Shown in pieces: positions 17,578-45,646 of a DNA stretch of 64,000 bases. The stretch lies in the NCBI GenBank assembly GCA_019326865.1, contig GCA_019326865.1_4101.1; one strand, 5' to 3'. A program made the translations under genes and the position numbers. This stretch comes from a phage. The notes beneath the pieces were generated by a model that was given only the letters and a program-made list of their open reading frames with translations, made no database searches and was not told the DNA's origin. Every line of letters begins with the position of its first letter. Position 1 is the stretch's first letter.

Positions 17578-17584
17578 CATTATG

Positions 17585-30811: not shown

Positions 30812-30905
30812 AAGTACTTGATAATAGTTTGACTATGTATTACAGTACTGTATAATAGATACATAAGGGGCGAATAGTTTGCCCCTAGTACAAAGGGGAA
30901 ACATT

Positions 30906-31136: not shown

Positions 31137-31143
31137 GTACATA

Positions 31144-31165
31144 GCCCACCTGGTGGGCTTTTTTG
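31144..31165 (+). terminator. terminator gcccac-ctg-gtgggc + T-run
   Basis: GC stem then tttttt. Confidence 0.6.
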
Positions 31166-31360
31166 TTTTTGTAGTACTGCATACTTTGAAAATAGTTTTA
31201 AAAAAGTAGTTGACATTACCGCAAAAAGGCGTAGAATGTATTACATCAAGACGGGGAGCACTAAGTAGACCGCCAGTAAGTCGAACGAAAAACTGGACAC
31301 GTCGAGAAAACTTTGATACACTAACTAACATAAACTAAACTTTAATTGAGGATTTATAAA

Positions 31361-31843: not shown

Positions 31844-31864
31844 CAATTAAAGTACTGAATCACT

Positions 31865-31892
31865 AGCCCACTTCTTATAGTGGGCTTTTTTG
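31865..31892 (+). terminator. terminator agcccac..gtgggct + T-run
   Basis: Stem-loop then tttttt. Confidence 0.6.
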
Positions 31893-32107
31893 TGTTTATC
31901 GTTTACCAGTCCACTAGCACCGCCTAGAATCGATTCTAACGCATTAAACTGGTCGCCCTAGCTGGTGGCATTAATGCCGTTAGAACGCGATTGAGGACGT
32001 TTAAAGTATTTTTGCAAAAAGTAATAAAAAGTACTTGCACGATTAAGAGATTAGAGTATAATTAATTACATCAAGACAAGACACCTTAACTAACTGAGGA
32101 TATAAAG

Positions 32108-32260
32108 ATGAATACTTATGAACTGGATTGTTTTACTTTACAAGTAATGTCAGTATGCAGTAAAAAAGATTGGTCATCAAAGGAATTTAAAGCAGTTATT
32201 GCGTGTGCAAAACACGGCAAGACTATCAATGAAACGGCATCAATCATTGATAAACTTTAA
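32108..32260 (+). CDS. hypothetical small protein (50 aa)
   Basis: Short ORF after promoter, SD gagga. Confidence 0.4.
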   Translation: MNTYELDCFTLQVMSVCSKKDWSSKEFKAVIACAKHGKTINETASIIDKL

Positions 32261-32331
32261 AAAATAGTTTGACAATAGTTTTAAGTACTGCGATAATACA
32301 TACATCAACTACTGAATAGGAATAAAAAACA

Positions 32332-32559
32332 ATGGCTATCGTAATCACTCGCGTAACTGGTACTACTGGCACTGCTTCAAATGTTGCTGTAATTACTAAT
32401 AAGAAAGGTGCAGAATTACATTTTGCAATGGATAAATGGGCCGTTAATGAGTTTGGTCAGTGGGCAAGTGTAGCATACATTGAAACCTATCAAGTGCCAT
32501 CGATTAGCTTAACTGATTTAGGTGTAGAACGTATCCTTTGCCTGGATGAATTAAATTAA
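32332..32559 (+). CDS. hypothetical protein
   Basis: Starts ATGGCT after promoter. Confidence 0.6.
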   Translation: MAIVITRVTGTTGTASNVAVITNKKGAELHFAMDKWAVNEFGQWASVAYIETYQVPSISLTDLGVERILCLDELN

Positions 32560-32645
32560 AAAAGTACTTGCAAAGTAAATCGAATAAAGTATAATACATT
32601 ACATCAAGGGGAGAAAATGGTTCTCCCCACTAAGAGGAAACTAAT

Positions 32646-32789
32646 ATGAAAACTTGTCAATGTGGTAAAAAATCTATTACTGGTTTGAAACGGGGCGTTG
32701 CACTTTGCCAGTACCATTATAATTTACAAGTATGGGGTAAAGAATGGGCCGATCAGGTGGAAGCAATAAAGAAAGCAAAAAGTAAGTAA
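32646..32789 (+). CDS. hypothetical small Cys-containing protein (47 aa)
   Basis: Short ORF after promoter + hairpin. Confidence 0.4.
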   Translation: MKTCQCGKKSITGLKRGVALCQYHYNLQVWGKEWADQVEAIKKAKSK

Positions 32790-32869
32790 AAAATATTATC
32801 ACAGTACTATTGACATAGATTGATAGTACTGGCATAATAGATTTTATTAAAACAACTGAGGAAATTAAA

Positions 32870-33082
32870 ATGGCTATCATTACTAAAATCAAAGTAAACA
32901 AAACACTGGTTAAGCTGGAACAAGTGAAAGAAGGTTATAAAGTATCTTGGTGCGGTATGTATCGGACGTTCGCAGATGTAGACGATGCAATCAATTACTA
33001 CACTGACACGGTTAAAAACTTTGTTCGTGCTGATGTGGTTATGGCAGTGGCAACATATAAAGCATCAAAAGAAAGTAAGTAA
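32870..33082 (+). CDS. hypothetical protein, paralog of 35824 gene
   Basis: Identical promoter block upstream; N-terminus MAII. Confidence 0.6.
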   Translation: MAIITKIKVNKTLVKLEQVKEGYKVSWCGMYRTFADVDDAINYYTDTVKNFVRADVVMAVATYKASKESK

Positions 33083-33164
33083 AAATATTATCACAGTACT
33101 ATTGACATAGATTGATAGTACTGGCATAATAGATTTTATCAAGACAACTAAGAGGAAATTAAAA

Positions 33165-33509
33165 ATGGCTAACATCAATACTATAGCAGCACAAAATATC
33201 AACCTGTCTTCTGTTGAAGTTGTACACATTGCCGCCCGGCGTTGGTTCCAGGCGTCTTATGGTAATACGTATTTCTCTTTAACGGTAGATGTTGAAATCA
33301 ATGGCGAATTTATTGAAGTAGTAAACGTGCCGTTCCAATATGGCTACGGGGATCATTTTGACACTGTAGCAATGGAAGAATTTAGCAAGGTTATTAATAT
33401 GGAAGGTAAAGAGTTTTTACGCGGTTCTTATCTTTCCCGTTTTTGCCGTGATAATAATATCACTGTTTATAGTTCTGTTAGTGATGTTAAACGCAAAAAA
33501 GATCTTTAA
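33165..33509 (+). CDS. hypothetical protein, paralog of 39526 gene (C-terminal VKRKKD)
   Basis: Shared C-terminal motif. Confidence 0.6.
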   Translation: MANINTIAAQNINLSSVEVVHIAARRWFQASYGNTYFSLTVDVEINGEFIEVVNVPFQYGYGDHFDTVAMEEFSKVINMEGKEFLRGSYLSRFCRDNNITVYSSVSDVKRKKDL

Positions 33510-33589
33510 TTAGCTTTACTTTATGCAGATACTTTGATATAGTGTCTGCATAGGGGAAAGAAATTAAATCAACTTAAGAGGATAGTAAA

Positions 33590-33859
33590 ATGAAAAATAT
33601 CAGTACTTTAATCGATGCAGGTACACATGTTCGTCGGTCTATGGTTGCAACCAGTTCTACAAAACAAGTAGCGAGCGGTTATCTTGTATTTGTGCACGAT
33701 GGAAAACTCCTGGAACGTTCAATCAATTTTGATGTTAAAAACAATTGCCGTTTTATTATCTTTCGCCGTGAACAATACAAGATCGACATTCCAGCAAAGC
33801 CCATTAGCGGGGCGTACAACGTGCAATCATTGTTTGAGCGTCAACCATACACCTATTAA
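33590..33859 (+). CDS. hypothetical protein
   Basis: ORF with SD gagga. Confidence 0.55.
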   Translation: MKNISTLIDAGTHVRRSMVATSSTKQVASGYLVFVHDGKLLERSINFDVKNNCRFIIFRREQYKIDIPAKPISGAYNVQSLFERQPYTY

Positions 33860-33910
33860 TCAAAACATCGTTAGCGGTCGATTTAGGCCGCTTATACTGG
33901 GGATTATATA

Positions 33911-34183
33911 ATGAATACTAATCAAGTACTGAATGAGATTGAAAGCATCATTAAACCGATGAAGCGTACTGATGCAATGTTAACACCGGAAGAATGCCGC
34001 CTATATGAGCGTTATAGCGTCGAACAAGTCCAGGAAATGGCTATGGCTATCCCTGCCGTTCAACAGCCTGAGAATGCGTCACAGGACGTTACAGGGGATT
34101 ATAACATCAATCCAGTACTAGGGAAGATTACACCAATTACCGAAGAAGAAAAAGACTACTTAAGCCAGTACTTAAAAGGTTAA
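33911..34183 (+). CDS. hypothetical protein
   Basis: ORF. Confidence 0.55.
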   Translation: MNTNQVLNEIESIIKPMKRTDAMLTPEECRLYERYSVEQVQEMAMAIPAVQQPENASQDVTGDYNINPVLGKITPITEEEKDYLSQYLKG

Positions 34184-34188
34184 TTAAT

Positions 34189-34398
34189 ATGCTTACTGTA
34201 CAGGATAAGATCGACATCTTAAAGGTTAATATGTATGTGATTGATGCAGATCCTGAAAAAGTATTTGCATACGATGATTCTAATCGTAGTCCTTTTTATT
34301 GTAGTCATGTAGTTGGATATGTGCCGTTATCGTATGTTATCGAAAGAGTGGTTGATTCAGCATACAAACATTTTTTAGAAAATAGTACTTGCAATTAG
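34189..34398 (+). CDS. hypothetical protein
   Basis: ORF. Confidence 0.5.
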   Translation: MLTVQDKIDILKVNMYVIDADPEKVFAYDDSNRSPFYCSHVVGYVPLSYVIERVVDSAYKHFLENSTCN

Positions 34399-34466
34399 TT
34401 TTTAGTACTGTATAATGTTTTACATGAAGGGGGGAAATGATTCTCCCCAATAACAGGAGAAACAAA

Positions 34467-34619
34467 ATGAAACAATACAACGCTCGGTTTGATGTTACTA
34501 TCGGCAACGGCAAAGGTCAATTCTCTTTCAGTGCTCGTAAGAGTTATACAGAAAACTTCTTGCGTAATTGTGCACTGACCGCCGCACAAATTAAACATTA
34601 TTTTCAGGCTAAAAAATGA
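34467..34619 (+). CDS. hypothetical small protein (50 aa)
   Basis: Start after leader hairpin, SD aggag. Confidence 0.45.
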   Translation: MKQYNARFDVTIGNGKGQFSFSARKSYTENFLRNCALTAAQIKHYFQAKK

Positions 34620-34850
34620 AATCATTAGCTTATTATAGCTCGGCCCTGGTCGGTGCATTGATCGCGGCATTGTTAGTAGCTTATCTATTCTTTATGGTGA
34701 TTTAAATGAATCCTAACGGTATAATTTACAGTACTCCTAAAACTAAAGCAGATAAAGCGGAAGCACGTAAAGCGAAAGTAAAGGAGTACATCAAGCAAGG
34801 TATGACACGAAAGGCGGCGATTCTAAAAGCTAAAAATAAATGAAAAAAAG

Positions 34851-34940
34851 TGGTTGACTTCGGTCAGCCATTTTGCTATTATATATTCATTGAGAGATAG
34901 CTCACTAGCCCACAGGGTGCGGGAGTGTATCTATTATATA
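34851..34940 (+). repeat. ~90-bp repeat element copy 1 (hairpin ggttgacttcggtcagcc + ...tagcccacagggtgcgggagtgtatc...)
   Basis: Near-identical copies at 38578, 41587, 43870. Confidence 0.75.
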
Positions 34941-35065
34941 AGTATTGAGTACTGAAAACTATTTTAAAAGTACATGTATAAAGTACTTGCAAACTATCTC
35001 AATTGGCGTATAATGTTTTACATCGAGAGGGGAAACGGTTTCCCCTAGTAATAAGGAATAAAATC

Positions 35066-35407
35066 ATGACTATTGCAATTGTACAATCTAACTTTGAAAA
35101 TGAAATCATCGCCCAAGCACTGCGTTTAAATGATGGTCGGGCCGAAATTAATTACGGTTTCAATTCAGGCGGTTGTGAAAAATATCAGTACTTTATAACT
35201 GCTGATGGCGGTGTCCTGGGTATTAATACAGTTATTGTAAACATTCAGAAAATTAATTTCAATGATCCAGACGATAGCCAGTTTTACATTGTAGGCGTAG
35301 ACGTGAACTATGAGGATGACTCACTAACTGATGATTACACTGGCGAGAAGTTAGAAAGTGCATACGGTGAAGATGATTATCAGTCAGTACCGGAAGATTT
35401 TGAATAA
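35066..35407 (+). CDS. hypothetical acidic protein
   Basis: Start at MTIAIVQ after leader hairpin. Confidence 0.55.
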   Translation: MTIAIVQSNFENEIIAQALRLNDGRAEINYGFNSGGCEKYQYFITADGGVLGINTVIVNIQKINFNDPDDSQFYIVGVDVNYEDDSLTDDYTGEKLESAYGEDDYQSVPEDFE

Positions 35408-35531
35408 TATTAAAAAATAGTTTGACAATAGATTATAGTACTGTATAATAGTTTACATCAAGGGCGACGGGAAGTTTTAAAAACTTCCCTATAGGGAGAA
35501 TAGTTCTCCCCACTAACAGAGAGAAAACAAA

Positions 35532-35744
35532 ATGGCTAATATCTGCACTGTACTGAAAAATGCAAAACAAGTTTTATTTTCTGATCACGATCATTTAAAC
35601 AAGGATATTACTGGCGTTCGGAATATCAAAGATGTAAAACGTGTTATGGGTATCTATTGCAATATGAAACGTGTCGGCACGTTCGGTAATAAATTTCTAT
35701 ACCAGGCGGGGGATTACAATTTTACACTGACTATCATTAACTAA
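35532..35744 (+). CDS. hypothetical protein
   Basis: Promoter with two leader stem-loops upstream. Confidence 0.6.
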   Translation: MANICTVLKNAKQVLFSDHDHLNKDITGVRNIKDVKRVMGIYCNMKRVGTFGNKFLYQAGDYNFTLTIIN

Positions 35745-35823
35745 AAATATTATCACAGTACTATTGACATAGATTGATAGTACTGGCATAATAGATTTTA
35801 TTAAAACAACTGAGGAAATTAAA

Positions 35824-36003
35824 ATGGCTATCATCGCAAAAACTGAAATCATCGGCCTGGATTCTATCATCATGACGTTTGAAGATCAAAAAGGTATGTA
35901 TGTAGTTTCCTATGGTGATTATGTTCGGGAGTATGAAACGGTAGACGAAGCCTTTGAAAGTTACATTCGCCAGGTGAATAAAGCATACGACGATTACCGC
36001 TAA
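35824..36003 (+). CDS. hypothetical protein (59 aa), paralog of 32870 gene
   Basis: Same promoter block as 32790-32869. Confidence 0.5.
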   Translation: MAIIAKTEIIGLDSIIMTFEDQKGMYVVSYGDYVREYETVDEAFESYIRQVNKAYDDYR

Positions 36004-36104
36004 AATATATTACCAGTACTATCAAAGCTATTGACAACGTTTGATAGTACTGTATAATAAGTTTTATCAACTGTAGTTAACTTAACAAAAGAGAGAGAAA
36101 CAAA

Positions 36105-36248
36105 ATGATCGCACTGGATTCATTCATCGATGCAGTTCTGGCAAAAACTGGCGAGGATCTGACCGCAGAACAATACGCGATGATCGAGCAATGCCAGCAA
36201 GACGGTAAATCGGTGAAAGATACTGTTAAGATTATCCGCAAGATGTAA
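36105..36248 (+). CDS. hypothetical small protein (47 aa)
   Basis: After promoter with AGTACTATCAA inverted repeat around TTGACA. Confidence 0.4.
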   Translation: MIALDSFIDAVLAKTGEDLTAEQYAMIEQCQQDGKSVKDTVKIIRKM

Positions 36249-36354
36249 GATTATAAGCCCATTAGTTAACGCTGGTGGGCTTTAATCATTTACCCTATAC
36301 AATGCCAGTACTAAACCGTTTATCTCGTTAGAATGCATTACAGGACGTTTAACA

Positions 36355-36552
36355 ATGATTAGCATGAAATCAGTACAAAAACAAATAGAAACATTATCAA
36401 AAATTAAACGTAAACAGTACTCATTAGAATATAATATCAATGGTAACTATCATCTAATGAAAGAGAATAATTTTATCGTCATTGATGAATCATTGCAAAT
36501 TATTAGTATAGTACTGAAAGCATTAATTAATGATAGAAAAAGGTTAAAATAA
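36355..36552 (+). CDS. hypothetical protein
   Basis: ORF. Confidence 0.45.
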   Translation: MISMKSVQKQIETLSKIKRKQYSLEYNINGNYHLMKENNFIVIDESLQIISIVLKALINDRKRLK

Positions 36553-36809
36553 TGGCAGTAGGATTCGCGAAAGATGGAGCCGAGCAAGATGAGATTAACG
36601 CAGTTATTCAAGCCGCCGTTAACCACGCTAGAAAGCAAATTAACGCACAAATAGAATCACTGATACATTGCCTCGACTGCGGCGATAAAATCCCTGAGAA
36701 TCGCCGACAGGCTGTTAAGGGATGTAAGTACTGCATAACCTGCCAGGAAGATCATGATAGTACTTTTAAACGAGATCCGCGTAATTGTTGGCATAGATCT
36801 ATGAGATAA
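36552..36809 (+). CDS. TraR/DksA-like C4 zinc-finger protein
   Basis: C-x2-C-x13-C-x2-C-x2-C with IPENRR motif. Confidence 0.55.
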   Translation: MAVGFAKDGAEQDEINAVIQAAVNHARKQINAQIESLIHCLDCGDKIPENRRQAVKGCKYCITCQEDHDSTFKRDPRNCWHRSMR

Positions 36810-36873
36810 AAAGTAATTGACAGTACTGAAAGATAGTGTATAATGTTTTATATCTTAACTGAGGATAGAAATC

Positions 36874-37230
36874 ATGGGAATACAACATATCACGCTGACC
36901 ACTGACAATGGCGAGATCACTGGTTATCAAGTACAGGGCAAAGTAGCACAATTGCAGTACTGGTTTGTTAAACGTGGAATCATTGCACCGGATCTTGATT
37001 ATGACCGTGTAGCGTTTATTGATTCTCTTTATGTTGATCCTGAAAGTCGGGGCAATGGTGAAGGTAACGAATTAATGAATGCCTTTATTGATGCCGCCGA
37101 TGATTCAGATTGTATCATTTTAGAATGCGATACGGGAGAAGATAACGCCTTCAATCTTAAAGAATGGTATGAAGGTTTCGGATTCGAAGTACTGATCGAT
37201 AGTGAATATCCTATCATGATTTTATCATAG
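36874..37230 (+). CDS. hypothetical acidic protein
   Basis: ORF with SD gagga. Confidence 0.6.
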   Translation: MGIQHITLTTDNGEITGYQVQGKVAQLQYWFVKRGIIAPDLDYDRVAFIDSLYVDPESRGNGEGNELMNAFIDAADDSDCIILECDTGEDNAFNLKEWYEGFGFEVLIDSEYPIMILS

Positions 37231-37319
37231 TACTAAAAAAGTAATTGACAGTACTATCAGATAGTATATAATGTTTTACATAGAGGGGAAACATCTTCCC
37301 CTACTAAGAGGAAAGAAAA

Positions 37320-37508
37320 ATGGAAAACTTATCAAGTATTTTAGTACAAGATGATTTTGGTAATCCTGGAAGTGCTATCATTGTTCGGGGTAATAAAGCA
37401 ACGTTTGTTATTGCTGGTGGACCTGTACAGCGTAGCATTAAAAACAATGCTGTTACTATTAATAATGTACGCTATCGCTTAGATAAAGAATTGATTCATA
37501 AACTGTAA
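37320..37508 (+). CDS. hypothetical protein
   Basis: After promoter + hairpin ggggaaacatcttcccc. Confidence 0.55.
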   Translation: MENLSSILVQDDFGNPGSAIIVRGNKATFVIAGGPVQRSIKNNAVTINNVRYRLDKELIHKL

Positions 37509-37535
37509 TATTAATTTAATAGAGGATAACAATAA

Positions 37536-37859
37536 ATGTACATTCATACTACTATCACAAAGGAAGTCCGTTGCCAGTTCGAAAGTATTCCGGGCGTATG
37601 TTTCATCACTGGTACGTTTTCCCCTGGTGATCGTGATAATCCAGTACTGTTACAGTTACGCCATCCATTATGGGATAAAGCATTTGATCTACCGTTGAAT
37701 GAATTCGCAACTACTGCTGAAAAGTACATTAAAAATATTCGCGAGAATGATCGACTATTCATTAATGCTTTTAGTGATTCCGCGTTAAGCGAGATCCACG
37801 GCGTATTGGTTGCAATCATGGAATCAATGGAGAAAACTAAATTCAAACAAGGTGAATAA
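37536..37859 (+). CDS. hypothetical protein
   Basis: ORF with SD gagga. Confidence 0.6.
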   Translation: MYIHTTITKEVRCQFESIPGVCFITGTFSPGDRDNPVLLQLRHPLWDKAFDLPLNEFATTAEKYIKNIRENDRLFINAFSDSALSEIHGVLVAIMESMEKTKFKQGE

Positions 37860-37943
37860 AAACTATTGACAATGTAATCTAGTACTGTATAATAAGTTAC
37901 ATGAAGGGGAGAAATGATTCTCCCTACTAAGAGGAAAGAAAAA

Positions 37944-38156
37944 ATGCAAGGTCAACTAATCGTTCGTAAATGGTCTGATACTAATGAAAAACCGTGGGAT
38001 GTACAATACATCGGACCGGATGGGGTATCACGTTATCAGCCTGGCGTAACGCATAGTACTGAGCAATATGCCGCCGCTCATCGTGAACGCCTGTTAGAAT
38101 CTATGCAACAGGGTTTAGGTGAAAAATTCATTCAAGATCATTGGCTGAAAGATTAA
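37944..38156 (+). CDS. hypothetical protein
   Basis: Start after leader hairpin ggggagaaatgattctccc. Confidence 0.55.
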   Translation: MQGQLIVRKWSDTNEKPWDVQYIGPDGVSRYQPGVTHSTEQYAAAHRERLLESMQQGLGEKFIQDHWLKD

Positions 38157-38242
38157 AAAGTACTTGTGTAGTATAGAAAATAAAGTATAATGTTTAATAC
38201 AGGAAGGGGAATAGTTCCCCTCCTAACAAAAAGGAAAGTAAC

Positions 38243-38416
38243 ATGATTCATGTAGAATTGTCAGTACTGAGAGATTTGTTTTATCGGATGGGTACTACTG
38301 GCGAATATCCGAAGGGTGATACTGCAAAACTTTTTGTATCTCTCGACTTATGGCAACGCGAACAATTAGTAATGTCGTGGCGTAAAGGTAAAGCAGATCG
38401 CGAGGTGAAAGCATGA
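38243..38416 (+). CDS. hypothetical small protein (57 aa)
   Basis: After promoter + hairpin. Confidence 0.45.
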   Translation: MIHVELSVLRDLFYRMGTTGEYPKGDTAKLFVSLDLWQREQLVMSWRKGKADREVKA

Positions 38417-38562
38417 AAGAATTTTTATTCGAAGTAGTTTTTATTGGTGTAAGTAGTCACCAATTGATTCGCTCAAGTGGTTACAATGTTTGCCAGGCAT
38501 GGAATAACATTAAACAAATGTACCCGAACGCTATCACATATCGCAACCCAAAACAAGTTTAA
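38413..38562 (+). CDS. hypothetical small protein (49 aa)
   Basis: ATGA-coupled to upstream ORF. Confidence 0.35.
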   Translation: MKEFLFEVVFIGVSSHQLIRSSGYNVCQAWNNIKQMYPNAITYRNPKQV

Positions 38563-38577
38563 AAATAATTAAAAAAA

Positions 38578-38667
38578 GGATTGACTTCGGTCAGTCCTTT
38601 TTGCTATTATATATTCATTGAGAGATAGCTCACTAGCCCACAGGGTGCGGGAGTGTATCTATTATAT
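38578..38667 (+). repeat. ~90-bp repeat element copy 2
   Basis: Matches 34851 copy. Confidence 0.75.
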
Positions 38668-38894
38668 GTTGGTGGGTGTATTATCTAGTACTGAAAACTA
38701 TTTGATAAAAAGTACTTGCATTGTACTTAGAATCAAGTATAATGTTTTACATCAGGACAGGGAACGAAATAAGTAACTTCCCGTTAAGTAGCCCAGGAGT
38801 AAGGCATACGAAAAACTCCCCTGATAAAATAGTTTGACAATAGTTTTAAGTACTGATAAAATAATCACATCAACTACTGATAAGGAAACATAAA

Positions 38895-39170
38895 ATGCGG
38901 GTTCTTCTGACAGCTAACGAAATCGAGCAAGTACTTACTACTAACCTGGAACAATGGAAACGTGAAGCAGATATCCAGGCGGTTCAATTGTTAAATGAGA
39001 AGTTAACGCCGGATGATTTAAGTAAGATTGTAGATCCTCAATTCTACGAAGATATTCACGACACCGCGTTAAGCGTCGAGGATGTACTAGATAAACACTA
39101 CATTGATACTAATTTACAGGGTTACGGTCGTAAAAATTTTATTACTATTCACGACATTTACAATAATTAA
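38895..39170 (+). CDS. hypothetical protein
   Basis: ORF after promoter. Confidence 0.6.
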   Translation: MRVLLTANEIEQVLTTNLEQWKREADIQAVQLLNEKLTPDDLSKIVDPQFYEDIHDTALSVEDVLDKHYIDTNLQGYGRKNFITIHDIYNN

Positions 39171-39256
39171 GTATTGACAAAGTATCTTAGTACTGTATAA
39201 TAGTTTACATCAAGTGAGGGGAATGGTTCCCCTCCTAACAAAGAGAGAAATAAAAA

Positions 39257-39439
39257 ATGGCTAAGTGCACTATCTGTAAGAAAGAAATAGTATTAGTTCC
39301 AAGTGCCCGTGAGCGTGCAGCTCGGTTCGGTGGCAAAGCGTCAGACTATACAAAAATGTTTACTACTCATGCAAATTGCCAGGTAGCAAAACGTTCACAA
39401 GAAAGCGTAGAATTAATGCGTAAACTTTCCAAAAAATAA
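39257..39439 (+). CDS. hypothetical small Cys-containing protein
   Basis: Promoter block duplicated at 39440-39525. Confidence 0.55.
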   Translation: MAKCTICKKEIVLVPSARERAARFGGKASDYTKMFTTHANCQVAKRSQESVELMRKLSKK

Positions 39440-39525
39440 GTATTGACAAAGTATCTTAGTACTGTATAATAGATTACATCAAGTGAGGGGAAACGGTTCC
39501 CCTCCTAACAAAGAGAGAAATAAAA

Positions 39526-39849
39526 ATGACTATGATCCTTGCCCAGAAAGTAGAACTGAAAATTGTAACTTCCTTTGACATTAAAGTTAATCGCTGGACT
39601 GATCGGAACGGTAATACTTACCACTCTTGCTACGTGTCTGCATTGATTGGTGATCGTTGGGAAGACTTGGGACACGAAACCTTTACATACGGTTACGGTA
39701 CGCAAGGCGAATACACTGGTTTGGAGATCATTAAAGAAACCGTTATAGGTTTCAACCCGAAAGAAAAAGTTATTCACCGCATCGAAAAAGAGATTAATAA
39801 AGAAATAACAGTTCGCTACTACGATGTAAAACGTAAGAAAGACATGTAA
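39526..39849 (+). CDS. hypothetical protein, paralog of 33165 gene
   Basis: Shared C-terminal VKRKKD motif. Confidence 0.6.
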   Translation: MTMILAQKVELKIVTSFDIKVNRWTDRNGNTYHSCYVSALIGDRWEDLGHETFTYGYGTQGEYTGLEIIKETVIGFNPKEKVIHRIEKEINKEITVRYYDVKRKKDM

Positions 39850-39935
39850 TAGAATCCATTTAAAGTACTATTTGACATTACACAGATAGTACTTTATAAT
39901 AGACTCTAACTTGTAGTATTAACTTAACTAATAGG

Positions 39936-40340
39936 ATGTATACCATGATTACTAAATTCTACGCTACCCGTGAAGCTGCCCGTATTGTTGCACGCGAGGA
40001 AGGAGCGGCATTTAAAGACATGGGCAAAGATGCACCGAAAGGCCAACGCTGGAGCGTACAGTTCAAAGAAATCTCTGATATTGTGAATTCACCTGAACCA
40101 GTACTGACAGCAGCAGAACAGAAGAAAGCTGATGAACTGGCGGCAATTCTTAACGCTCAAGATGAATTCGTCGAGGGTGCTGATATCCAGGTTGTAGTAA
40201 ATTCGAATGCATGGACTCACGCGGATCATCTGGCTAACCTGAAGCGTCCAAGCGTATTGATTCGCAACCATAAAGAGATCCGACACGACCGCAAGGGCAA
40301 CCGTGTTACTGTATACAGTAAACGCCGCCAGGTTATCTAA
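39936..40340 (+). CDS. hypothetical protein, paralog of 27512 gene
   Basis: Shared KFYATREAAR..FKDMG..RKGNRVTVY; alternative start 39945. Confidence 0.6.
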   Translation: MYTMITKFYATREAARIVAREEGAAFKDMGKDAPKGQRWSVQFKEISDIVNSPEPVLTAAEQKKADELAAILNAQDEFVEGADIQVVVNSNAWTHADHLANLKRPSVLIRNHKEIRHDRKGNRVTVYSKRRQVI

Positions 40341-40362
40341 TACCTAGCAGTACTAACAACAC

Positions 40363-40387
40363 GGCGGGATCTGTTCCCGCCTTTTTT
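40363..40387 (+). terminator. terminator ggcggga-tctg-ttcccgcc + T-run
   Basis: GC stem then tttttt. Confidence 0.65.
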
Positions 40388-40402
40388 ACAGGATAAACTA
40401 AA

Positions 40403-40657
40403 ATGATTAAGGTAAAACTATCTAAAGATAATATCTTGCGGGTACACTATAAAGCCCCTCAGAGAATCATCACAAAGGCCGTACAGCTTGCGAATGAGTT
40501 TATTAATGGTAATCTATTACCTAGGAAGTTAAGCAACGGAAAACTGCGTGTAATCGATGTAGACACTAACAACAGAATAGTAATAGAGAATACCGGAAAG
40601 ATAAACCTATATGAACACCAACAATATAATAAGAAAATAAAACTAATTAGTCGTTGA
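40403..40657 (+). CDS. hypothetical basic protein
   Basis: ORF. Confidence 0.55.
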   Translation: MIKVKLSKDNILRVHYKAPQRIITKAVQLANEFINGNLLPRKLSNGKLRVIDVDTNNRIVIENTGKINLYEHQQYNKKIKLISR

Positions 40658-40711
40658 CAGTACTCAAATGTTTTAGTACTATATATCTATACCAACACGG
40701 AGAGAAACAAA

Positions 40712-40930
40712 ATGAAATTATCTAAAATCGAAAAGAAAACTATTGACGTAGCTATCCAACATGGTTACACCTTTCGTAATGATTTACATTTTACCAATTT
40801 TCAACAAGGGTATCGTACTATTAAAAAACTAATTGACAAAGGTTTATTAGTTAAAGTAGACAACGGCAACGGCGTTGAATATCAACCAACACAGGACGCA
40901 TTTAATTTTAAGAAATATAATATTATCTAA
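40712..40930 (+). CDS. hypothetical protein
   Basis: ORF with SD ggagag. Confidence 0.55.
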   Translation: MKLSKIEKKTIDVAIQHGYTFRNDLHFTNFQQGYRTIKKLIDKGLLVKVDNGNGVEYQPTQDAFNFKKYNII

Positions 40931-40987
40931 TTGACAGTACTCAAATGTTTTAGTACTATATCTATACCAACACAGGAAAAAAACAAA

Positions 40988-41572
40988 ATGCGTAATTATA
41001 CTAAATTCATCCGTACACTGTCAGAAATGGAAACCAACAAAGAGATCTTGACAGCTTGTCGGTTAGCTGGTCTGGAGATCATCGGTGCGGGGTCTTCCCG
41101 TATTGTATTCGCTTTAAATGATCGGTTAGTGATTAAGGTCGCGAATTGTGATGCGGGTGTAGAACAAAATGAAACAGAATGTAAAGTATGGAATTTTTTA
41201 GATTATGACCGACCTCAGTTGAAACAGTTCTTTGCTAAAGTACATATGCATTTAAGCGATCCTGATAATATGTTTATTGTTATGGATCGGTTGAGTACTG
41301 CAAGTAAAGGCAGTGTAAAGCACGTTAACGCGTGCAACGAATTAAAGTACAATATTAAACGTAATGCAATCGAACGCCAGCACCGCTTTGCTGATGCACT
41401 ACAACACGTCGATGATACATTATCAACACTAACGATCAGAGATATCAGAAAACAGAATATCGGACAGGATCGAAATGGACTGATTAAAGTACTTGATTAT
41501 GGTTTAACCCGCAATATCTGGAATCAGTACTATAAAAAGCGTGATGTAAAAGCCGTAACTATAACACGATAA
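40988..41572 (+). CDS. hypothetical protein, kinase-fold-like (IIGAGSSRIVF, VIKV, DIRKQN, LDYG)
   Basis: Gly-rich loop, lysine motif and catalytic/DFG-like motifs in canonical order; start at MRNYTKF. Confidence 0.5.
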   Translation: MRNYTKFIRTLSEMETNKEILTACRLAGLEIIGAGSSRIVFALNDRLVIKVANCDAGVEQNETECKVWNFLDYDRPQLKQFFAKVHMHLSDPDNMFIVMDRLSTASKGSVKHVNACNELKYNIKRNAIERQHRFADALQHVDDTLSTLTIRDIRKQNIGQDRNGLIKVLDYGLTRNIWNQYYKKRDVKAVTITR

Positions 41573-41586
41573 AAAAGATTAAAAAA

Positions 41587-41675
41587 GGGATTGACTCCGG
41601 TCAGTCCCTTTGCTATTATATATTCATTGAGAGATAGCTCACTAGCCCACAGGGTGCGGGAGTGTATCTATTATA
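41587..41675 (+). repeat. ~90-bp repeat element copy 3
   Basis: Matches 34851 copy. Confidence 0.75.
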
Positions 41676-41787
41676 TAAGTATTGAGTACTGAAAACTATT
41701 TTTAAAAAGTACTTGCATTGTACTTAGATTCAAGTATAATGTTTTATATCGAGAGGGGGAACGTCCCTGATAATAAGGAATAAAATC

Positions 41788-42009
41788 ATGACTACAATGA
41801 CTTGCATTTACGCTTCCAATCTTCTGAATGATGCTGTTTTTAATGTTGATTCAGAATATCAATGTTATCGGGATGAAAATAAAAAAGTTTTTGTAGTTGA
41901 TAATAATGGTTTCCATATTGAATTACAATCCGGCTTCACTGGTGTTGATGGTAAATCAGTATGGGGCGTACAGGATGATAAAGGCACATATCATTTTAAA
42001 CGTAATTAA
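41788..42009 (+). CDS. hypothetical protein
   Basis: ORF after promoter. Confidence 0.55.
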   Translation: MTTMTCIYASNLLNDAVFNVDSEYQCYRDENKKVFVVDNNGFHIELQSGFTGVDGKSVWGVQDDKGTYHFKRN

Positions 42010-42124
42010 GTATTGACAAAGTATCTTAGTACTGTATAATAGTTTACATCAAGGGCAACGGGAAGTTTTAAAAACTTCCCTATAGGGAGAACAGTTCTCC
42101 CCGATACTAAAAGGAAACAAAAAT

Positions 42125-42397
42125 ATGTCTAGCTACTCCGCTACTATGATCATTAAAGATATGAACGGTAATCCTACTGCTGCTGGTGGATCATTTGGAA
42201 ACATTAACTTAGATGGTCGGTTAACCATGCAATCAGCCATCAATGCAGCGAAAGAAGTTTTTAAGAATGAATGCACTGTAAGTAAGCTGGATTATATGGG
42301 ATTCGCTATCGAGAAAACTAATCGTTTTGTGAACTACAAAAATCCACTGATGATTGATACTAACCTGAAAGCTAACGAAGTGGAATACTTATTATGA
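42125..42397 (+). CDS. hypothetical protein
   Basis: ORF after promoter with two leader stem-loops. Confidence 0.6.
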   Translation: MSSYSATMIIKDMNGNPTAAGGSFGNINLDGRLTMQSAINAAKEVFKNECTVSKLDYMGFAIEKTNRFVNYKNPLMIDTNLKANEVEYLL

Positions 42398-42585
42398 CAG
42401 TTGAAGAAGTTAAAAAAGTACTGGCAGTTCTACGCTATCATAACCATTGCAAGGTGAAGAATGATTCTGATTATCTTGATTCATCCCTTGAGGAAGACAC
42501 ATTAAACGCAATAAGCTATATGCAAACATTATTAAAACGTATGACCGAAAAGAATAGACCGGACTATATCGGAAATAAAATTTAA
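42394..42585 (+). CDS. hypothetical protein
   Basis: ATGA-coupled. Confidence 0.5.
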   Translation: MTVEEVKKVLAVLRYHNHCKVKNDSDYLDSSLEEDTLNAISYMQTLLKRMTEKNRPDYIGNKI

Positions 42586-42671
42586 AAAGTACTTGCATTG
42601 TAGTTAGATTAACGTATAATGTTTTATATCGAGAGGGGAAATGGTTTCCCCTCAAGTCCAGGAGATACACA

Positions 42672-42935
42672 ATGAACACTATCGAAATCACTATCAATGC
42701 TCACGTATACGACAACGTAGTACTGCAAACTACTATGACCGCTAATGATACCAGTACTTTGCGGAATACTGTTATTAGTGCTGTATGTGCCGCTATCGGT
42801 GATGTCGCCCTGGAAAATGCAAAACACGTAAACGATGGTTTCACTATGTGCAAGCGTGATAACGCAAAACATATCATCGTAGAAGGTTACGGCGGTGTAG
42901 AATATAATGTTTATATGAAAAAAGTACTTGCATAA
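42672..42935 (+). CDS. hypothetical protein
   Basis: ORF after promoter + hairpin. Confidence 0.6.
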   Translation: MNTIEITINAHVYDNVVLQTTMTANDTSTLRNTVISAVCAAIGDVALENAKHVNDGFTMCKRDNAKHIIVEGYGGVEYNVYMKKVLA

Positions 42936-43002
42936 TAACTAAAACAAAGTATAATGTTTTGCATAGGGGGAGATATCCTCCCCCACTAAAAGGAGTAATA
43001 AA

Positions 43003-43227
43003 ATGGCTAACTTTGATGAACTGATGCGGGAAGTAGCTAACCTGGCAGAAGAGAAGAAATCATTCGATTCTATCTATAACACCTCTTACCGTGATTCAGT
43101 ACTGGCATGTAACCAGGATCAAAAAGATGAACTAATCGCCACCTATTATGAAGCATGGAAGTACTACCGACAATGGGAGAAAGAAGAAAGTGAGTCTACC
43201 ATTGACGGCCTCAATAATCTAATCTAA
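43003..43227 (+). CDS. hypothetical protein
   Basis: ORF after promoter + hairpin gggggagatatcctccccc. Confidence 0.6.
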   Translation: MANFDELMREVANLAEEKKSFDSIYNTSYRDSVLACNQDQKDELIATYYEAWKYYRQWEKEESESTIDGLNNLI

Positions 43228-43302
43228 AGTTTTATTTCAGTACTATTGACATAGATTGATAGTACTGATATGATAACTTTACTATCTACAAGGGGAAACA
43301 TC

Positions 43303-43560
43303 ATGGAACAATTCACACAATATCGGGTAAATCCTCAAGCTATGGCATACGTAGAAGACCATAAAACGTTACCAGTACAAACACCAATTAAAGGCCATAT
43401 CTATCGTGCAATGTCATGGAATCCGGCCCAGTATGGCTATAACACCGTAGCCGTGGGCATGTACTGCGGCAATGGTGAATGGTTTGATCCTAACAATCCG
43501 ATTGCACTTGATAGTACTGAAAAAATGAAATGGGCCGACTACATCGAAGATATTTCATAA
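43303..43560 (+). CDS. hypothetical protein
   Basis: Start at MEQFTQY. Confidence 0.55.
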   Translation: MEQFTQYRVNPQAMAYVEDHKTLPVQTPIKGHIYRAMSWNPAQYGYNTVAVGMYCGNGEWFDPNNPIALDSTEKMKWADYIEDIS

Positions 43561-43650
43561 AAATTATTTGACAGTACTAACCAGTAATGTATAATGTTTT
43601 ACATAGAGCGGGGGAATAGTTCTCCCGCCAATAGTTTGGAGTAAAACATT

Positions 43651-43851
43651 ATGTCTATCGCTATCGCCCTGGTCGAAGTACTGAAAGAAGCTAAAGCCAA
43701 CCTTATCGATGTACAGATTAAGGAATTGCAAAATGGCTTAATCGGCTGTACTTGTACCGCTGGTGGCCCGTCAGACTATCGGGAATTCGAATCACTTGAA
43801 TCGATGGTCCGTTATCTTACAATCATCGTAGAAGATTGGAGAATCATCTAA
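43651..43851 (+). CDS. hypothetical protein
   Basis: ORF after promoter + hairpin. Confidence 0.55.
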   Translation: MSIAIALVEVLKEAKANLIDVQIKELQNGLIGCTCTAGGPSDYREFESLESMVRYLTIIVEDWRII

Positions 43852-43869
43852 CAAAAAAAAAGAATAAAA

Positions 43870-43955
43870 AGGGATTGACTCCGGTCAGTCCCTTTGCTAT
43901 TATATACGCATAGACAAAAACTAGCCCACAGGGTGCATAGGTGTATCTTAAATAT
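43870..43955 (+). repeat. ~90-bp repeat element copy 4 (diverged 3' half)
   Basis: Matches 41587 copy at 5' end. Confidence 0.65.
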
Positions 43956-44097
43956 ATAGTTAATAACGGTGAGTAACTATCTGCTGGTGGGGTGAAAACT
44001 ATTAATAAAAAGTATTGACAAAGTATATCAGTACTGCAATAATGTATCTCGTAGGGCGGCAATGGTGCGACGGTCCACAAAGTTAGGAGATTCACAA

Positions 44098-44430
44098 ATG
44101 AGTACTTCAATCGCTATCGTTAAAGCTTTCATCCGTACCAACGTTTCATCTGTATTCATTGACGGACTGGATCGGGAAGTAGAATACTCAATCATTATCG
44201 CACAAACTGCAAACGGTGCTCGGTACATCCTTAATAATAGTGAAGCAAATCACTACTACTTCACTAAAGCCACTGGCTTTAAACGCATCGATGCTGATGT
44301 AGTATACGCTAAGATGAATAAGCTGGTAGACAAGATTAACGCGAAAGGTACTATCGATTTACAGTACTGGACCGAAACCGATCCAGAATATGGATCTCAC
44401 CGCTACCTGAATCCAGGTATTAAAATGTAA
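44098..44430 (+). CDS. hypothetical protein
   Basis: Start at MSTSIAIV with SD aggag. Confidence 0.6.
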   Translation: MSTSIAIVKAFIRTNVSSVFIDGLDREVEYSIIIAQTANGARYILNNSEANHYYFTKATGFKRIDADVVYAKMNKLVDKINAKGTIDLQYWTETDPEYGSHRYLNPGIKM

Positions 44431-44519
44431 AAAGTACTTGCATAGTACTTAGATTTAAGTATAATGTTTTTCATAGAGAGGGGGAAATGGTTCTCCCTCC
44501 TAAATTAAGGAGTTTTATC

Positions 44520-44921
44520 ATGACCTTCTCAATCACTTCCTTCGCTGACGTTTTAGTACTGGCTCGGACTTTCGGCAAAGCTGGCCTTGAGCACGCTGTA
44601 AGTAATGGTTATATGCACCCGGAATATTGCCGCATTATCGGTAGCTGTAAACGTTGGGCCGTGTCCCGTAATATTGAGATTGAAAACTTCAATGATGGTA
44701 ACAACGAATATACAGTTGATGCAGTATTCGAATCCGTTGATCTCGGCGGTATCTATAACACTAACCTGAATGATGTGCGTATTGTTCGCACGGGGTTCGG
44801 TGCTTATGATGTATCTATCCGTGAAGCGATGGACAAGGGATACATTAGCAAGGATCAGTTAGCTTACATTATGCAGCAGACTAAAGAGCGTAATGAAGCA
44901 CGCACTATCTTAGGTCTGTAA
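44520..44921 (+). CDS. hypothetical protein
   Basis: Start at MTFSITSF with SD aaggag. Confidence 0.6.
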   Translation: MTFSITSFADVLVLARTFGKAGLEHAVSNGYMHPEYCRIIGSCKRWAVSRNIEIENFNDGNNEYTVDAVFESVDLGGIYNTNLNDVRIVRTGFGAYDVSIREAMDKGYISKDQLAYIMQQTKERNEARTILGL

Positions 44922-44989
44922 GCATTACACATCACTAAACATCATAGGCCGCTCTCTAGCGGCCTTAACTATATCAGGAGTACATACAC

Positions 44990-45199
44990 ATGATCTATAC
45001 AGTATACAGTGTTCTAGGCACTATTGCAGGTGTACACGATAATGTCGATGATACTATGATTACAGTACTGCAACAGGTTCCACTAAAGCCTAAGACAGTT
45101 AAGAAGATGACCGCACGACTAACCAGGGCGACGGCTGGCGTGGAAGTATGGCAGGACTACGGGGATACACAGGTAATCGTAAGCGTAACGAGGGATTAA
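44990..45199 (+). CDS. hypothetical protein
   Basis: ORF with SD ggag. Confidence 0.5.
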   Translation: MIYTVYSVLGTIAGVHDNVDDTMITVLQQVPLKPKTVKKMTARLTRATAGVEVWQDYGDTQVIVSVTRD

Positions 45200-45448
45200 T
45201 ACGTAAAATGATTTAGTACTGATTCAGAAAAAAGTCAAGGCGTTTTTAAAATTATGCGTTAAAAAAATGCATAGGTAATCCCTTGACTTTTTTGAAATAA
45301 AAGGGATTGGACTATGGCAAAATGCGTAGGGGGGCTAAAGTGCGGGTAACTTAGCGGCTTCGATAAAGGGGTATTACGAATAAAATGTTATTGACTTTTT
45401 ATATAAATCGTATAAAATATGATTGATAATAATTTTAAGGGAGTCCCT

Positions 45449-45646
45449 GTGCGTATTTTAACTCAAGCAGAACACCACGAAAGACTTATCAATAACATGG
45501 CTATGATAATGTATAAGTCCCATGACCGTGGTATTGCCTATAAGCGTGAATTAGTACTGGAACTATTCATTGGAACTAACTTTCAGGAAAGGTATGTCAA
45601 CGATTGGATTTGGTATTTAATTGAAGATATAACGAGTAAACTATGA
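45449..45646 (+). CDS. GTNYQ-family small protein, member 1 (GTG start after SD aagggag)
   Basis: N-terminus VRILTQAEHHERL aligns with family M.IL..EY; C-terminal GTNFQERYV. Confidence 0.55.
   Translation: MRILTQAEHHERLINNMAMIMYKSHDRGIAYKRELVLELFIGTNFQERYVNDWIWYLIEDITSKL

What the first reader, a model, noticed from the sequence alone, without database searches (positions are those of the whole stretch)
45200..45448. Structured leader upstream of the GTNYQ array: 13-bp inverted repeat and a GC-rich island
aaaaaagtcaagg ... ccttgactttttt is a perfect 13-bp inverted repeat separated by ~40 nt, followed by an atypically GC-rich segment (gcgtaggggggctaaagtgcgggtaacttagcggcttcg) in AT-rich surroundings, then TTGACT..TATAAA and the first array gene. 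This could be a regulatory RNA or protein-binding site controlling the array.
Basis: seen in the sequence. Interest (0 to 1): 0.42.

Follow-up and report, generated by a model that had tools for sequence, protein, structure and literature searches.

The report
Right end of phage terminal repeat
The flagged stretch is not a leader for the gene array: it is where the 20-kb terminal repeat of this jumbo coliphage ends, and the packaged chromosome is cut inside the "GC-rich island", 35 bases after a 9-base box that is invariant across related jumbo phages.

Summary
There is a perfect 13-bp inverted repeat (45228-45240 / 45281-45293), a 59% GC island, and a TTGACT-16-TAAAAT promoter.

The window comes from an Asteriusvirus-type jumbo coliphage. 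Seven relatives deposited with both repeat copies all end at one nucleotide, which corresponds to window 45351, inside the island. They all start at window 24993. The window therefore holds one collapsed 20.4-kb direct terminal repeat (DTR).

Across at least 14 lineages, including another genus whose ends were mapped with PhageTerm, three things never change. These are the box TGGACTATG (one lineage has a variant), an exactly 35-nt spacer, and the cut CT^TAG.

The inverted repeat lies inside the repeat. It is the local form of a long hairpin plus T-tract that keeps its position but not its sequence. That hairpin folds better as + strand RNA, so it is most likely the terminator of the last repeat gene.

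The array promoter lies 40 nt beyond the cut. Neither element is therefore in the array's leader.

The repeat and its ends are already published for relatives. The box-35-cut signature appears not to have been described.

Interest: modest.

The parts
24993..45351 (+). Direct terminal repeat (DTR), present once in this collapsed assembly; about 20.36 kb. It is packed with + strand sigma-70-type promoters.
   Evidence: Five relatives start with AGTAGGCAGAGG..., which aligns to window 24993. Seven relatives end with ...GGGTAACCT, which aligns to window 45351. vB_Ec-M-J annotates positions 1..21525 as 'Direct Terminal Repeats'. Published DTR lengths are 20,993 bp (PMC13070987) and 20,668 bp (PMC11895373). 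There are 26 promoters of two AGTACT-containing classes inside the DTR and none after 45351.
44990..45199 (+). Last gene of the DTR (69 aa, phrog_17833, function unknown).
   Evidence: tblastn finds homologues in 69 phage records across the Rak2-like group. The gene sits 17-22 kb from the record start, or about 150-165 nt from the record end, wherever records are arranged by physical ends. The structure model is confident (pLDDT 95.8) but has no informative fold match.
45228..45293 (+). Extended hairpin. The inner 9-bp stem is 45252-45274. The 3' arm ends in T6 (45288-45293).
   Evidence: MFE -24 kcal/mol, z = -3.1. Long hairpins occur at the same position in other lineages with different sequences. 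The + strand RNA folds better than the - strand in 11 of 12 lineages.
45305..45316 (+). Box GATTGGACTATG. The invariant core is TGGACTATG at 45308-45316.
   Evidence: There is a single exact copy in the window. The core is invariant in 13 of 14 compared lineages; L053 has GACCTATG.
45317..45351 (+).
   Evidence: The length is exactly 35 in every lineage, although the sequence is only about 30-40% conserved between genera. Relative to its close relatives the window has +1 G and -1 C, so the net length is unchanged.
45350..45355 (+). Cut site CT^TAGC. The last base of the packaged chromosome is predicted to be 45351.
   Evidence: Seven Asteriusvirus records end at the homologous nucleotide. The PhageTerm-mapped DTR of fENko-Kae01 ends at the homologous CT|TAGC (PMC11218385). 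fEgEco12 ends were confirmed by restriction digests (PMC13070987).
45391..45418 (+). Sigma-70-type promoter TTGACT-16-TAAAAT of the GTNYQ array, 40 nt beyond the cut, in unique DNA.
   Evidence: It is conserved in all Asteriusvirus junctions except SD-15_S21, which has a deletion. An equivalent promoter lies 29-39 nt after the cut in five of the six Logan/ENA lineages (L050-L054), and fENko-Kae01 has TTGACA-17-TATACT at about +29 (read from the sequence).
45449..45646 (+). First gene of the GTNYQ array (GTG start, ribosome-binding site AAGGGAG at 45437-45443).
   Evidence: It matches phrog_4148, function unknown.
24993..25018 (+). Left physical end of the chromosome, which opens directly into a palindrome: AGTAGGCAGA-GGAAG-TCTGCC(G)TACT.
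   Evidence: The fENko-Kae01 left end likewise starts with TATCTTCT-CTGTATA-AGAAGATA at nucleotide 1.

Best explanation
The interval is the right-hand boundary module of the phage's ~20.4-kb direct terminal repeat (DTR). Read 5'->3', it has five parts.

1. The last DTR gene (44990-45199).
2. It is most likely the intrinsic-terminator-like 3' end of rightward early transcription. It would keep RNA polymerase from running off the DNA end in the right copy, or into the array in the left copy. This step is inferred, at about 50%.
3. An invariant box, TGGACTATG.
4. A spacer of exactly 35 nt, which in this genus is the G-rich island.
5. The cleavage point CT^TAG, where the packaged chromosome ends (45351).

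Only after this, in unique DNA, comes the sigma-70 promoter that drives the GTNYQ array.

Proposed mechanism: on replicated DNA the packaging nuclease (terminase, possibly with a partner) is positioned by the box and cuts a fixed 35 bp away to make the right end. The left end is made at 24993, at the foot of a palindrome.

Shown: the position of the ends in relatives, the invariance of the box, the spacing and the cut, and the position of the promoter.

Inferred: that this phage is cut at the same place, that the box is the recognition element, which enzyme cuts, and what the hairpin does.
For: The window belongs to the 121Q/PBECO4/G17 group: 37 phage records match, at up to 94.8% identity.

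Ends in relatives:
- vB_Ec-M-J annotates a DTR at 1..21525 whose end falls in this intergenic region.
- Seven records from different sources end at the identical nucleotide ...GGGTAACCT. Five start at AGTAGGCAG....
- The ends of fEgEco12 were determined by PhageTerm and confirmed by restriction digests (PMC13070987). Sharanji was mapped by PhageTerm (PMC11895373), and G17 by read coverage (PMC6563267).
- In Klebsiella phage fENko-Kae01, which belongs to another genus, the PhageTerm DTR ends at the homologous CT|TAGC, 145 nt after a homologous last gene (36% identity, E = 4e-14).

Conservation of the module:
- An anchored comparison shows TGGACTATG, then 35 nt, then CT|TAG, in window, fEgEco12, 121Q, JNE01, Turkey5, Kae01 and L042-L044.
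- The same arrangement is present in L049-L052 and L054. L053 has a variant box with the same spacing.
- The flanking sequence is largely unalignable between these lineages.
- The window carries two length-compensating indels inside the spacer.
- The last DTR gene keeps this position across 69 records of the Rak2-like group.

Hairpin:
- Folding z-scores are -2 or lower in 8 of 12 lineages.
- The + strand RNA is more stable than the - strand in 11 of 12 lineages, with 47 versus 22 G.U pairs.
- A U-rich tract follows the 3' arm.

The promoter lies downstream of the cut.
Against: - No reads or virion DNA exist for this particular phage, so its ends are inferred by homology.
- One record (BAU.Micro_ELP-22) ends 128 nt earlier. 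The 8.3-kb DTR reported for UE-S1 disagrees, although PMC13070987 calls it doubtful.
- Several records may have been arranged to follow earlier ones, so the seven are not certainly independent determinations.
- The left and right boundaries share no significant similarity, so one recognition element cannot explain both cuts.
- Nothing shows that the box binds a protein.
- The hairpin is not a canonical terminator: the outer loop is 40 nt and the stem is AT-rich. The terminator scan does not list it, and the UE-S1 annotation marks no terminator there.
- The inverted repeat is absent in JNE01 and Turkey5, and folding is unremarkable in 4 of 12 lineages.
Confidence: 0.8

Rival explanations
1. One reading: the inverted repeat and GC island form a structured 5' leader, or an operator, that regulates the GTNYQ array.
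For: The elements lie immediately upstream of the array. The region folds better than shuffled sequence (z = -3.27). Read-through transcripts from DTR promoters could carry these elements into the array mRNA from the left repeat copy.
Against: The array promoter lies downstream of both elements. The genome end splits the island. JNE01 and Turkey5 have the same promoter and array without the repeat. No Rfam family matches. The features conserved across genera are the box, the spacing and the cut; the GC content is not conserved.
Confidence: 0.07
2. The inverted repeat is not an RNA hairpin. It is two copies of a protein-binding element, TTGACTTTT, that belongs to the packaging recognition region, for example sites for a small terminase subunit next to the cut.
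For: TTGACTTTT recurs 16-46 nt upstream of the box in several lineages. It appears as one or two copies, in direct orientation (L031, L043, L049) or inverted orientation (window, Kae01, L050). It lies within about 125 nt of the DNA end.
Against: The copy number, orientation and distance to the box all vary, which is unusual for a recognition array. The element is absent in JNE01, Turkey5, L042 and L054, which keep the box-35-cut arrangement. The strand asymmetry and the use of G.U pairs point to RNA. The motif is not enriched in the window.
Confidence: 0.15
3. The hairpin is an RNase III processing site or a 3'-stabilising hairpin in a long early transcript, rather than a terminator.
For: It is a long (25-30 bp), imperfect, AT-rich double-stranded RNA stem with internal loops, placed between transcription units. 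This resembles the RNase III sites of phage T7 early mRNA (from my own knowledge, not tested here).
Against: A U-tract directly follows the stem in most lineages, which fits termination. There are no transcript data.
Confidence: 0.15
4. The region is a T5-like injection stop signal: DNA entry pauses at the end of the left repeat until repeat-encoded early proteins have been made.
For: The architecture resembles T5: a long DTR full of small genes with strong host-type promoters, and inverted repeats in an untranslated stretch of the left repeat. [quoted passage not shown]
Against: The T5 iss region is large and carries 8 ordered DnaA boxes. Here DnaA boxes are not enriched, and none lies in 45200-45450. 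The stretch is only about 150 nt. No two-step transfer has been reported for these phages in the papers read.
Confidence: 0.04

Closest known systems
Exact-end, long-DTR chromosomes of T5-like phages (about 10-kb repeats) and of other Rak2-like jumbo phages (CBB 22.5 kb, fENko-Kae01 19.7 kb, fEgEco12 21.0 kb)
   Same: The ends are fixed and not permuted. A repeat of tens of kb carries many small early genes under host-type promoters. The repeat ends in an intergenic region (PMC5259590, PMC11218385, PMC13070987, PMC10644984).
   Different: None of the papers read describes a cis-acting end signal for these phages. Here a conserved box, a 35-nt spacer and a cut can be read directly from sequence comparison.
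Lambda cos (cosB binding sites beside the cosN nicking site) and the general terminase scheme of a binding site with an adjacent cut
   Same: A sequence-specific element is proposed to position a nuclease that cuts at a defined nearby point. This general scheme is summarised in PMC3896407.
   Different: The product here is a terminally repeated chromosome, not 12-nt cohesive ends. The two ends lie 20 kb apart on the replicated template and share no significant similarity. No binding protein has been identified.
T7/T3 concatemer junction (short DTR, pac elements, a hairpin-forming repeat implicated in duplicating the repeat); from my own knowledge, not tested here
   Same: The DTR ends are exact, and an inverted repeat lies close to a repeat boundary.
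   Different: The T7 repeat is 160 bp, and its hairpin lies outside the repeat. Here the repeat is 20 kb and the hairpin lies inside it, 58-123 nt from the end. Its strand asymmetry also points to RNA.
Rho-independent terminators, including bidirectional ones with an A-tract, a stem and a T-tract
   Same: The element has the form A6 - stem - T6, starts 28 nt after a stop codon, and has a U-tract directly after the 3' arm.
   Different: The outer stem encloses 40 nt that fold into a second stem. The whole hairpin is 66 nt and AT-rich, which is outside the range of standard terminator predictors.

Membership tests
Phage chromosome with exact direct terminal repeats (PhageTerm class 'DTR, long') | Both physical ends fall at fixed nucleotides | tested here: met
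   This holds for relatives. Seven records end at the same base and five start at the same base. The PhageTerm-mapped Kae01 end is at the homologous CT|TAGC. For the window's own phage this is inferred by homology only.
Phage chromosome with exact direct terminal repeats (PhageTerm class 'DTR, long') | The same sequence is present at both ends in direct orientation | tested here: met
   The right end of vB_Ec-M-J (last 1574 nt) aligns over 1572 nt to window 43776-45350, the same stretch that lies just inside the end of the left repeat copy annotated at 1..21525. In other records the gene hits occur twice, about 20 kb from the start and about 150 nt from the end.
Phage chromosome with exact direct terminal repeats (PhageTerm class 'DTR, long') | Roughly 2x read depth over the repeat and read-start peaks at the ends, in this phage | not testable with these tools
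   No sequencing reads are available for the window's source.
Cis-regulatory 5' leader RNA (riboswitch, attenuator, thermosensor) | Lies between the transcription start and the start codon of the regulated gene | tested here: not met
   The promoter -35 element is at 45391, whereas the repeat ends at 45293 and the island at 45363. The promoter is conserved at this position.
Cis-regulatory 5' leader RNA (riboswitch, attenuator, thermosensor) | Match to a described RNA family, or covariation support | tested here: not met
   The best Rfam hits have E = 5.4 and 8.8, far below the gathering scores. Close relatives show only two haplotypes of the hairpin, with one possible compensatory change, which is too little to test covariation.
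Rho-independent terminator | Compact G+C-rich stem with a 3-8 nt loop | tested here: not met
   The scan does not list it. The outer loop is 40 nt and only 4 of the 13 outer pairs are G-C.
Rho-independent terminator | Stable hairpin immediately followed by a U-tract, downstream of a stop codon | tested here: met
   The MFE is -24 kcal/mol with z = -3.1. T6 lies at 45288-45293. The hairpin starts 28 nt after the stop codon at 45199. Hairpins in other lineages are followed by ACUUUUCU.
Rho-independent terminator | Transcript 3' ends map to the U-tract | not testable with these tools
   No transcript data are available, and none was found in the papers searched.
T5-type injection stop signal | Large untranslated repeat region with an ordered set of DnaA boxes | tested here: not met
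   There are 11 TTWTNCACA matches in the window against 13 expected, and none lies in 45200-45450. The feature definition comes from bioRxiv 10.1101/866236.
Terminase recognition and cleavage site (cos/pac-like) | Conserved sequence at a fixed distance from the mapped end | tested here: met
   TGGACTATG, then 35 nt, then CT|TAG is found in 13 of 14 lineages, and with a variant box in the fourteenth.
Terminase recognition and cleavage site (cos/pac-like) | Bound or cut by the phage terminase, and required in cis for packaging | not testable with these tools
   This needs biochemistry or genetics.

The most novel reading that the evidence does not exclude
TGGACTATG-N35-CT^TAG is the cis-acting right-end (packaging or termination) signal shared by the whole Rak2-like jumbo-phage group. 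The nuclease measures a fixed 35 bp from the box. Both chromosome ends carry terminal palindromes and are flanked on the outside by mirror-image TAGYG, which suggests one active site working in both orientations. This would be the first defined end signal for jumbo phages with 20-kb repeats. It would also allow their true ends to be predicted from sequence alone in the many deposited genomes that are arbitrarily permuted.
Probability: 0.45. Interest if true: 0.5.

Novelty: new member of a known kind. Interest (0 to 1): 0.33.

Why it matters
It corrects the reading of this locus. The "GC island" is where the virion DNA ends, and it is not an array regulator.

It places the GTNYQ array as the first operon of unique DNA, directly behind the early-gene repeat.

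It gives a simple sequence signature: last DTR gene, hairpin, TGGACTATG, 35 nt, CT^TAG. Using it, the physical ends of about 70 related jumbo-phage genomes could be located and the records re-oriented.

It also provides a defined, mutable target for studying how 350-kb chromosomes with 20-kb repeats are cut and packaged, about which the papers found here say nothing.

Tried and rejected
- RNA families and tRNA or tmRNA: no hit.
- Promoter read from either repeat arm (TTGACT): no acceptable -10 element at 16-19 nt on either strand (read).
- Shared motif between the left and right boundaries: the local alignment is no better than shuffles. The exact box occurs only once in the window.
- Covariation between the outside flanks. 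In the window the outward-reading flanks are TAGTGGC and TAGCGGC; in vB_Ec-M-J they are TAGTGAC and TAGCGAC. This looked promising. It was rejected because 121Q shows the left flank GCCACTA with the right flank TAGCGAC, and G17, PBECO4, phAPEC6 and others match the window's left flank at 100% while those whose right flank is held (PBECO4, phAPEC6) also read TAGCGAC. Only the mirror-image TAG(Y)G remains.
- Small inverted repeat across the cut (GCTAAAGG..CCT|TTAGC). It is perfect only in vB_Ec-M-J and has one compensatory-looking change in the window. It is lost in JNE01, Turkey5 and the OEQX-type contigs, so I do not rely on it.
- Mini-ORF starting at the ATG inside the box: its length and frame are not conserved (read).
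- DnaA boxes, as in the T5 iss: none found.
- The first exact 30-mer search of IMG/VR found nothing. Six of the nine metagenome pattern hits were chance matches inside coding sequence.

Full report
**1. Observation**

The sequence features are as described.
- AAAAAAGTCAAGG (45228-45240) and CCTTGACTTTTTT (45281-45293) are perfectly complementary, with 40 nt between them.
- Perfect inverted repeats of 13 bp or more with short loops are expected 0.21 times per shuffled window. Six loci are seen, so this one is non-random but not unique.
- The island (45325-45363) is 59% GC against 27% for the rest of the intergenic region. That puts it in the top 0.4% of 39-nt windows.
- TTGACT (45391) - 16 nt - TAAAAT (45418) is a 10-of-12 sigma-70 match.
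- The array's first gene starts at GTG 45449, behind AAGGGAG.
- No ORF of 30 aa or more, no tRNA and no Rfam family lies in the interval.

**2. What the window is**

BLAST places the window in the Asteriusvirus group of about 350-kb jumbo coliphages (121Q, PBECO4, G17 and others). There are 37 matching records, at up to 94.8% identity over 44900-45700.

In vB_Ec-M-J the annotated feature 'Direct Terminal Repeats' (1..21525) ends inside the homologous intergenic region. I fetched the ends of records that are long enough to hold both repeat copies.
- Seven of them (vB_Ec-M-J, E9.1, CRJP21, BF17, fEgEco12, G17, WPEC3) end at exactly the same nucleotide...GCGTAGGGGGCTAAAGGGCGGGTAACCT. This is 152 nt after the stop codon of the last gene.
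- Five start at AGTAGGCAGAGGAAGTCTGCC.

These points align to window 45351 and 24993.

The literature agrees.
- fEgEco12: 20,993-bp DTR by PhageTerm, confirmed by restriction digests (PMC13070987).
- Sharanji: 20,668 bp by PhageTerm (PMC11895373).
- G17: about 20 kb from read coverage (PMC6563267).
- CBB: 22,456 bp (PMC5259590).

Two records disagree. BAU.Micro_ELP-22 ends 128 nt earlier. UE-S1 reports an 8.3-kb DTR, which PMC13070987 considers misassigned.

**3. What is conserved**

Thirteen Asteriusvirus junctions were aligned. The divergent pair JNE01/Turkey5 lack the 13-bp repeat altogether. They keep GGGATTGGACTATG, the G-run, GGTAACC-TTAGC and the downstream promoter.

Klebsiella phage fENko-Kae01 belongs to another genus, and its DTR (1..19736) is annotated from PhageTerm (PMC11218385). 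It has a homologous last gene (36% identity, E = 4e-14). Its repeat ends 145 nt after that gene, at ...GATTGGACTATG-(35 nt)-...TGCCT|TAGCC.

More distant relatives were found in three ways:
- a pattern search of IMG/VR and metagenome contigs;
- a protein-guided search of IMG/VR;
- protein homologues followed by contig look-ups.

An ungapped comparison anchored on the box was then made. TGGACTATG, a spacer of exactly 35 nt and CT|TAG(C/T) are present in window, fEgEco12, 121Q, JNE01, Turkey5, Kae01, L042, L043, L044, L049, L050, L051, L052 and L054. L053 has the variant GACCTATG, with the same 35-nt spacing and the same CT|TAGC.

Four further points follow.
- Outside these elements the sequences are barely alignable. 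The distance from stop codon to box varies from 93 to 121 nt.
- The GC-richness is specific to Asteriusvirus. It is the spacer length that is conserved.
- Relative to its closest relatives, the window has one extra G in the G-run and one fewer C in AACC. This keeps the spacer at 35 nt.
- The last DTR gene (phrog_17833) is found in 69 records across the Rak2-like group. Where records are arranged by physical ends, it lies about 150-165 nt from the end.

**4. The inverted repeat**

The repeat lies inside the DTR, 58-123 nt from the end. As RNA, the stop-to-box segment folds into a 66-nt extended hairpin: a 13-bp outer stem, a short middle stem, a 9-bp inner stem, then T6. Its z-score is -3.1.

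The same position holds long hairpins of different sequence in most other lineages:

| Lineage | z-score |
|---|---|
| vB_Ec-M-J | -3.4 |
| Kae01 | -2.6 |
| L042 | -2.05 |
| L049 | -4.9 |
| L051 | -3.3 |
| L052 | -5.7 |
| L053 | -4.2 |
| L050 | -1.9 |
| L054 | -1.1 |
| L043 | -0.9 |
| JNE01 | -0.35 |

These hairpins are usually followed by ACUUUUCU.

The + strand RNA is more stable than the - strand in 11 of 12 lineages, and it uses 47 G.U pairs against 22. This argues for a sense-strand RNA structure rather than a DNA cruciform or a symmetric protein site.

An AAGTCA/TGACTT outer stem recurs in the main Asteriusvirus group, Kae01, L050 and L043, with loops of 18-55 nt.

Within close relatives only two haplotypes exist. 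They differ at opposed positions (CAG/TTG versus CAT/ATG) in a way that keeps pairing. That is too little for a covariation test.

My reading is a terminator-like hairpin that closes rightward early transcription before the DNA end or the array. It fails the compact-stem criterion of canonical terminators. An RNase III site and a protein-binding repeat remain open alternatives.

**5. Context**

The DTR carries at least 26 + strand promoters of two stereotyped classes: TTGACA-N9-AGTACTG-TATAAT and AAAAAGTACTTGCA-N17-TATAAT. None of them occurs beyond 45351.

The array promoter is of a different flavour and lies 40 nt after the cut. An equivalent promoter lies 29-39 nt after the cut in five of the six Logan/ENA lineages (L050-L054), and fENko-Kae01 has TTGACA-17-TATACT at about +29 (read from the sequence). 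The flagged interval is therefore the seam between the early-gene repeat and the first operon of unique DNA.

**6. The other end**

The left end (24993) opens directly into a palindrome, AGTAGGCAGA-GGAAG-TCTGCC(G)TACT. The Kae01 left end starts with an unrelated 8-bp palindrome at nucleotide 1.

Reading outward from each end, the flanks are TAGTGGC and TAGCGGC in the window, and TAGCGG and TAGCCA in Kae01. So a mirror-image TAG(Y) is shared. The two boundaries otherwise show no significant similarity, and an apparent flank covariation did not survive more genomes.

**7. Verdict**

The 'leader/regulator of the array' interpretation is not supported. The region is the right boundary of the DTR, and the chromosome end lies inside the GC island.

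The existence and position of the DTR are already known for relatives. The box-35-cut signature and the position-conserved hairpin appear not to have been described in the papers searched.

All functional assignments (which protein recognises the box, how the repeat is duplicated, what the hairpin does) are inferences that need the experiments listed under next steps.

Noticed in passing
whole window, densest at 22000-46000: AGTACT occurs 227 times against 21.6 expected. It is nearly absent from the GTNYQ array (46-50 kb). Inside the DTR it is built into two stereotyped + strand promoter classes: TTGACA-N9-AGTACTG-TATAAT (11 copies) and AAAAAGTACTTGCA-N17-TATAAT (15 copies).
   Followed up: partly
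window 24993-25018: The left physical end of the chromosome opens directly into a palindrome, AGTAGGCAGA-GGAAG-TCTGCC(G)TACT. The fENko-Kae01 left end starts with an unrelated 8-bp palindrome at nucleotide 1. CAGTACT lies 13-21 nt outside the cut in both phages.
   Followed up: partly
window 24993-26700: About 1.7 kb at the left of the DTR has no convincing ORF and is full of short repeats (GTAATCA, TTACCCC/GGGGTAA). vB_Ec-M-J annotates no gene in its first 1500 nt.
   Followed up: no
L001 6452 and L005 1049 (vB_Ec-M-J): This phage has one extra base at both DTR junctions, in mirror-symmetric positions: CACTAA|AGTAGG and AACCT|TTAGCG. Its close relative fEgEco12 has neither. This could be a homopolymer error at coverage steps, or a trace of how the ends are regenerated.
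   Followed up: partly
window 45317-45351 and homologous spacers: A second copy of the cut-site core lies inside or upstream of the spacer in several lineages. Kae01 has ACCTTAGTG about 20 nt before the cut. L043 and L050 have GCTTAGTT. JNE01 and Turkey5 have ACCTTAGCG about 70 nt before the cut. Asteriusvirus has the inverted form GCTAAAG at that place.
   Followed up: no
L027 (Turkey5), L020 (PBECO4), L025 (SD-15_S21): The junction is a hot spot for rearrangement. Turkey5 has an ~80-nt tandem duplication just after the last DTR gene. PBECO4 has an extra gene inserted after the cut, behind a copy of the same promoter. SD-15_S21 has a deletion starting about 20 nt after the cut.
   Followed up: no
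window 44990-45199: The 69-aa last DTR gene (phrog_17833) is conserved across Escherichia, Klebsiella, Salmonella, Erwinia, Yersinia, Serratia, Cronobacter, Pectobacterium and Xanthomonas jumbo phages, and always sits next to the repeat end. Its AlphaFold model is very confident (pLDDT 95.8; two strands, two helices, two strands) but resembles no solved structure informatively.
   Followed up: yes
window 44946-44965: A perfect GC-rich hairpin, AGGCCGCTCTCTAGCGGCCT, lies between the last two DTR genes. It is listed as terminator-like only on the - strand.
   Followed up: no
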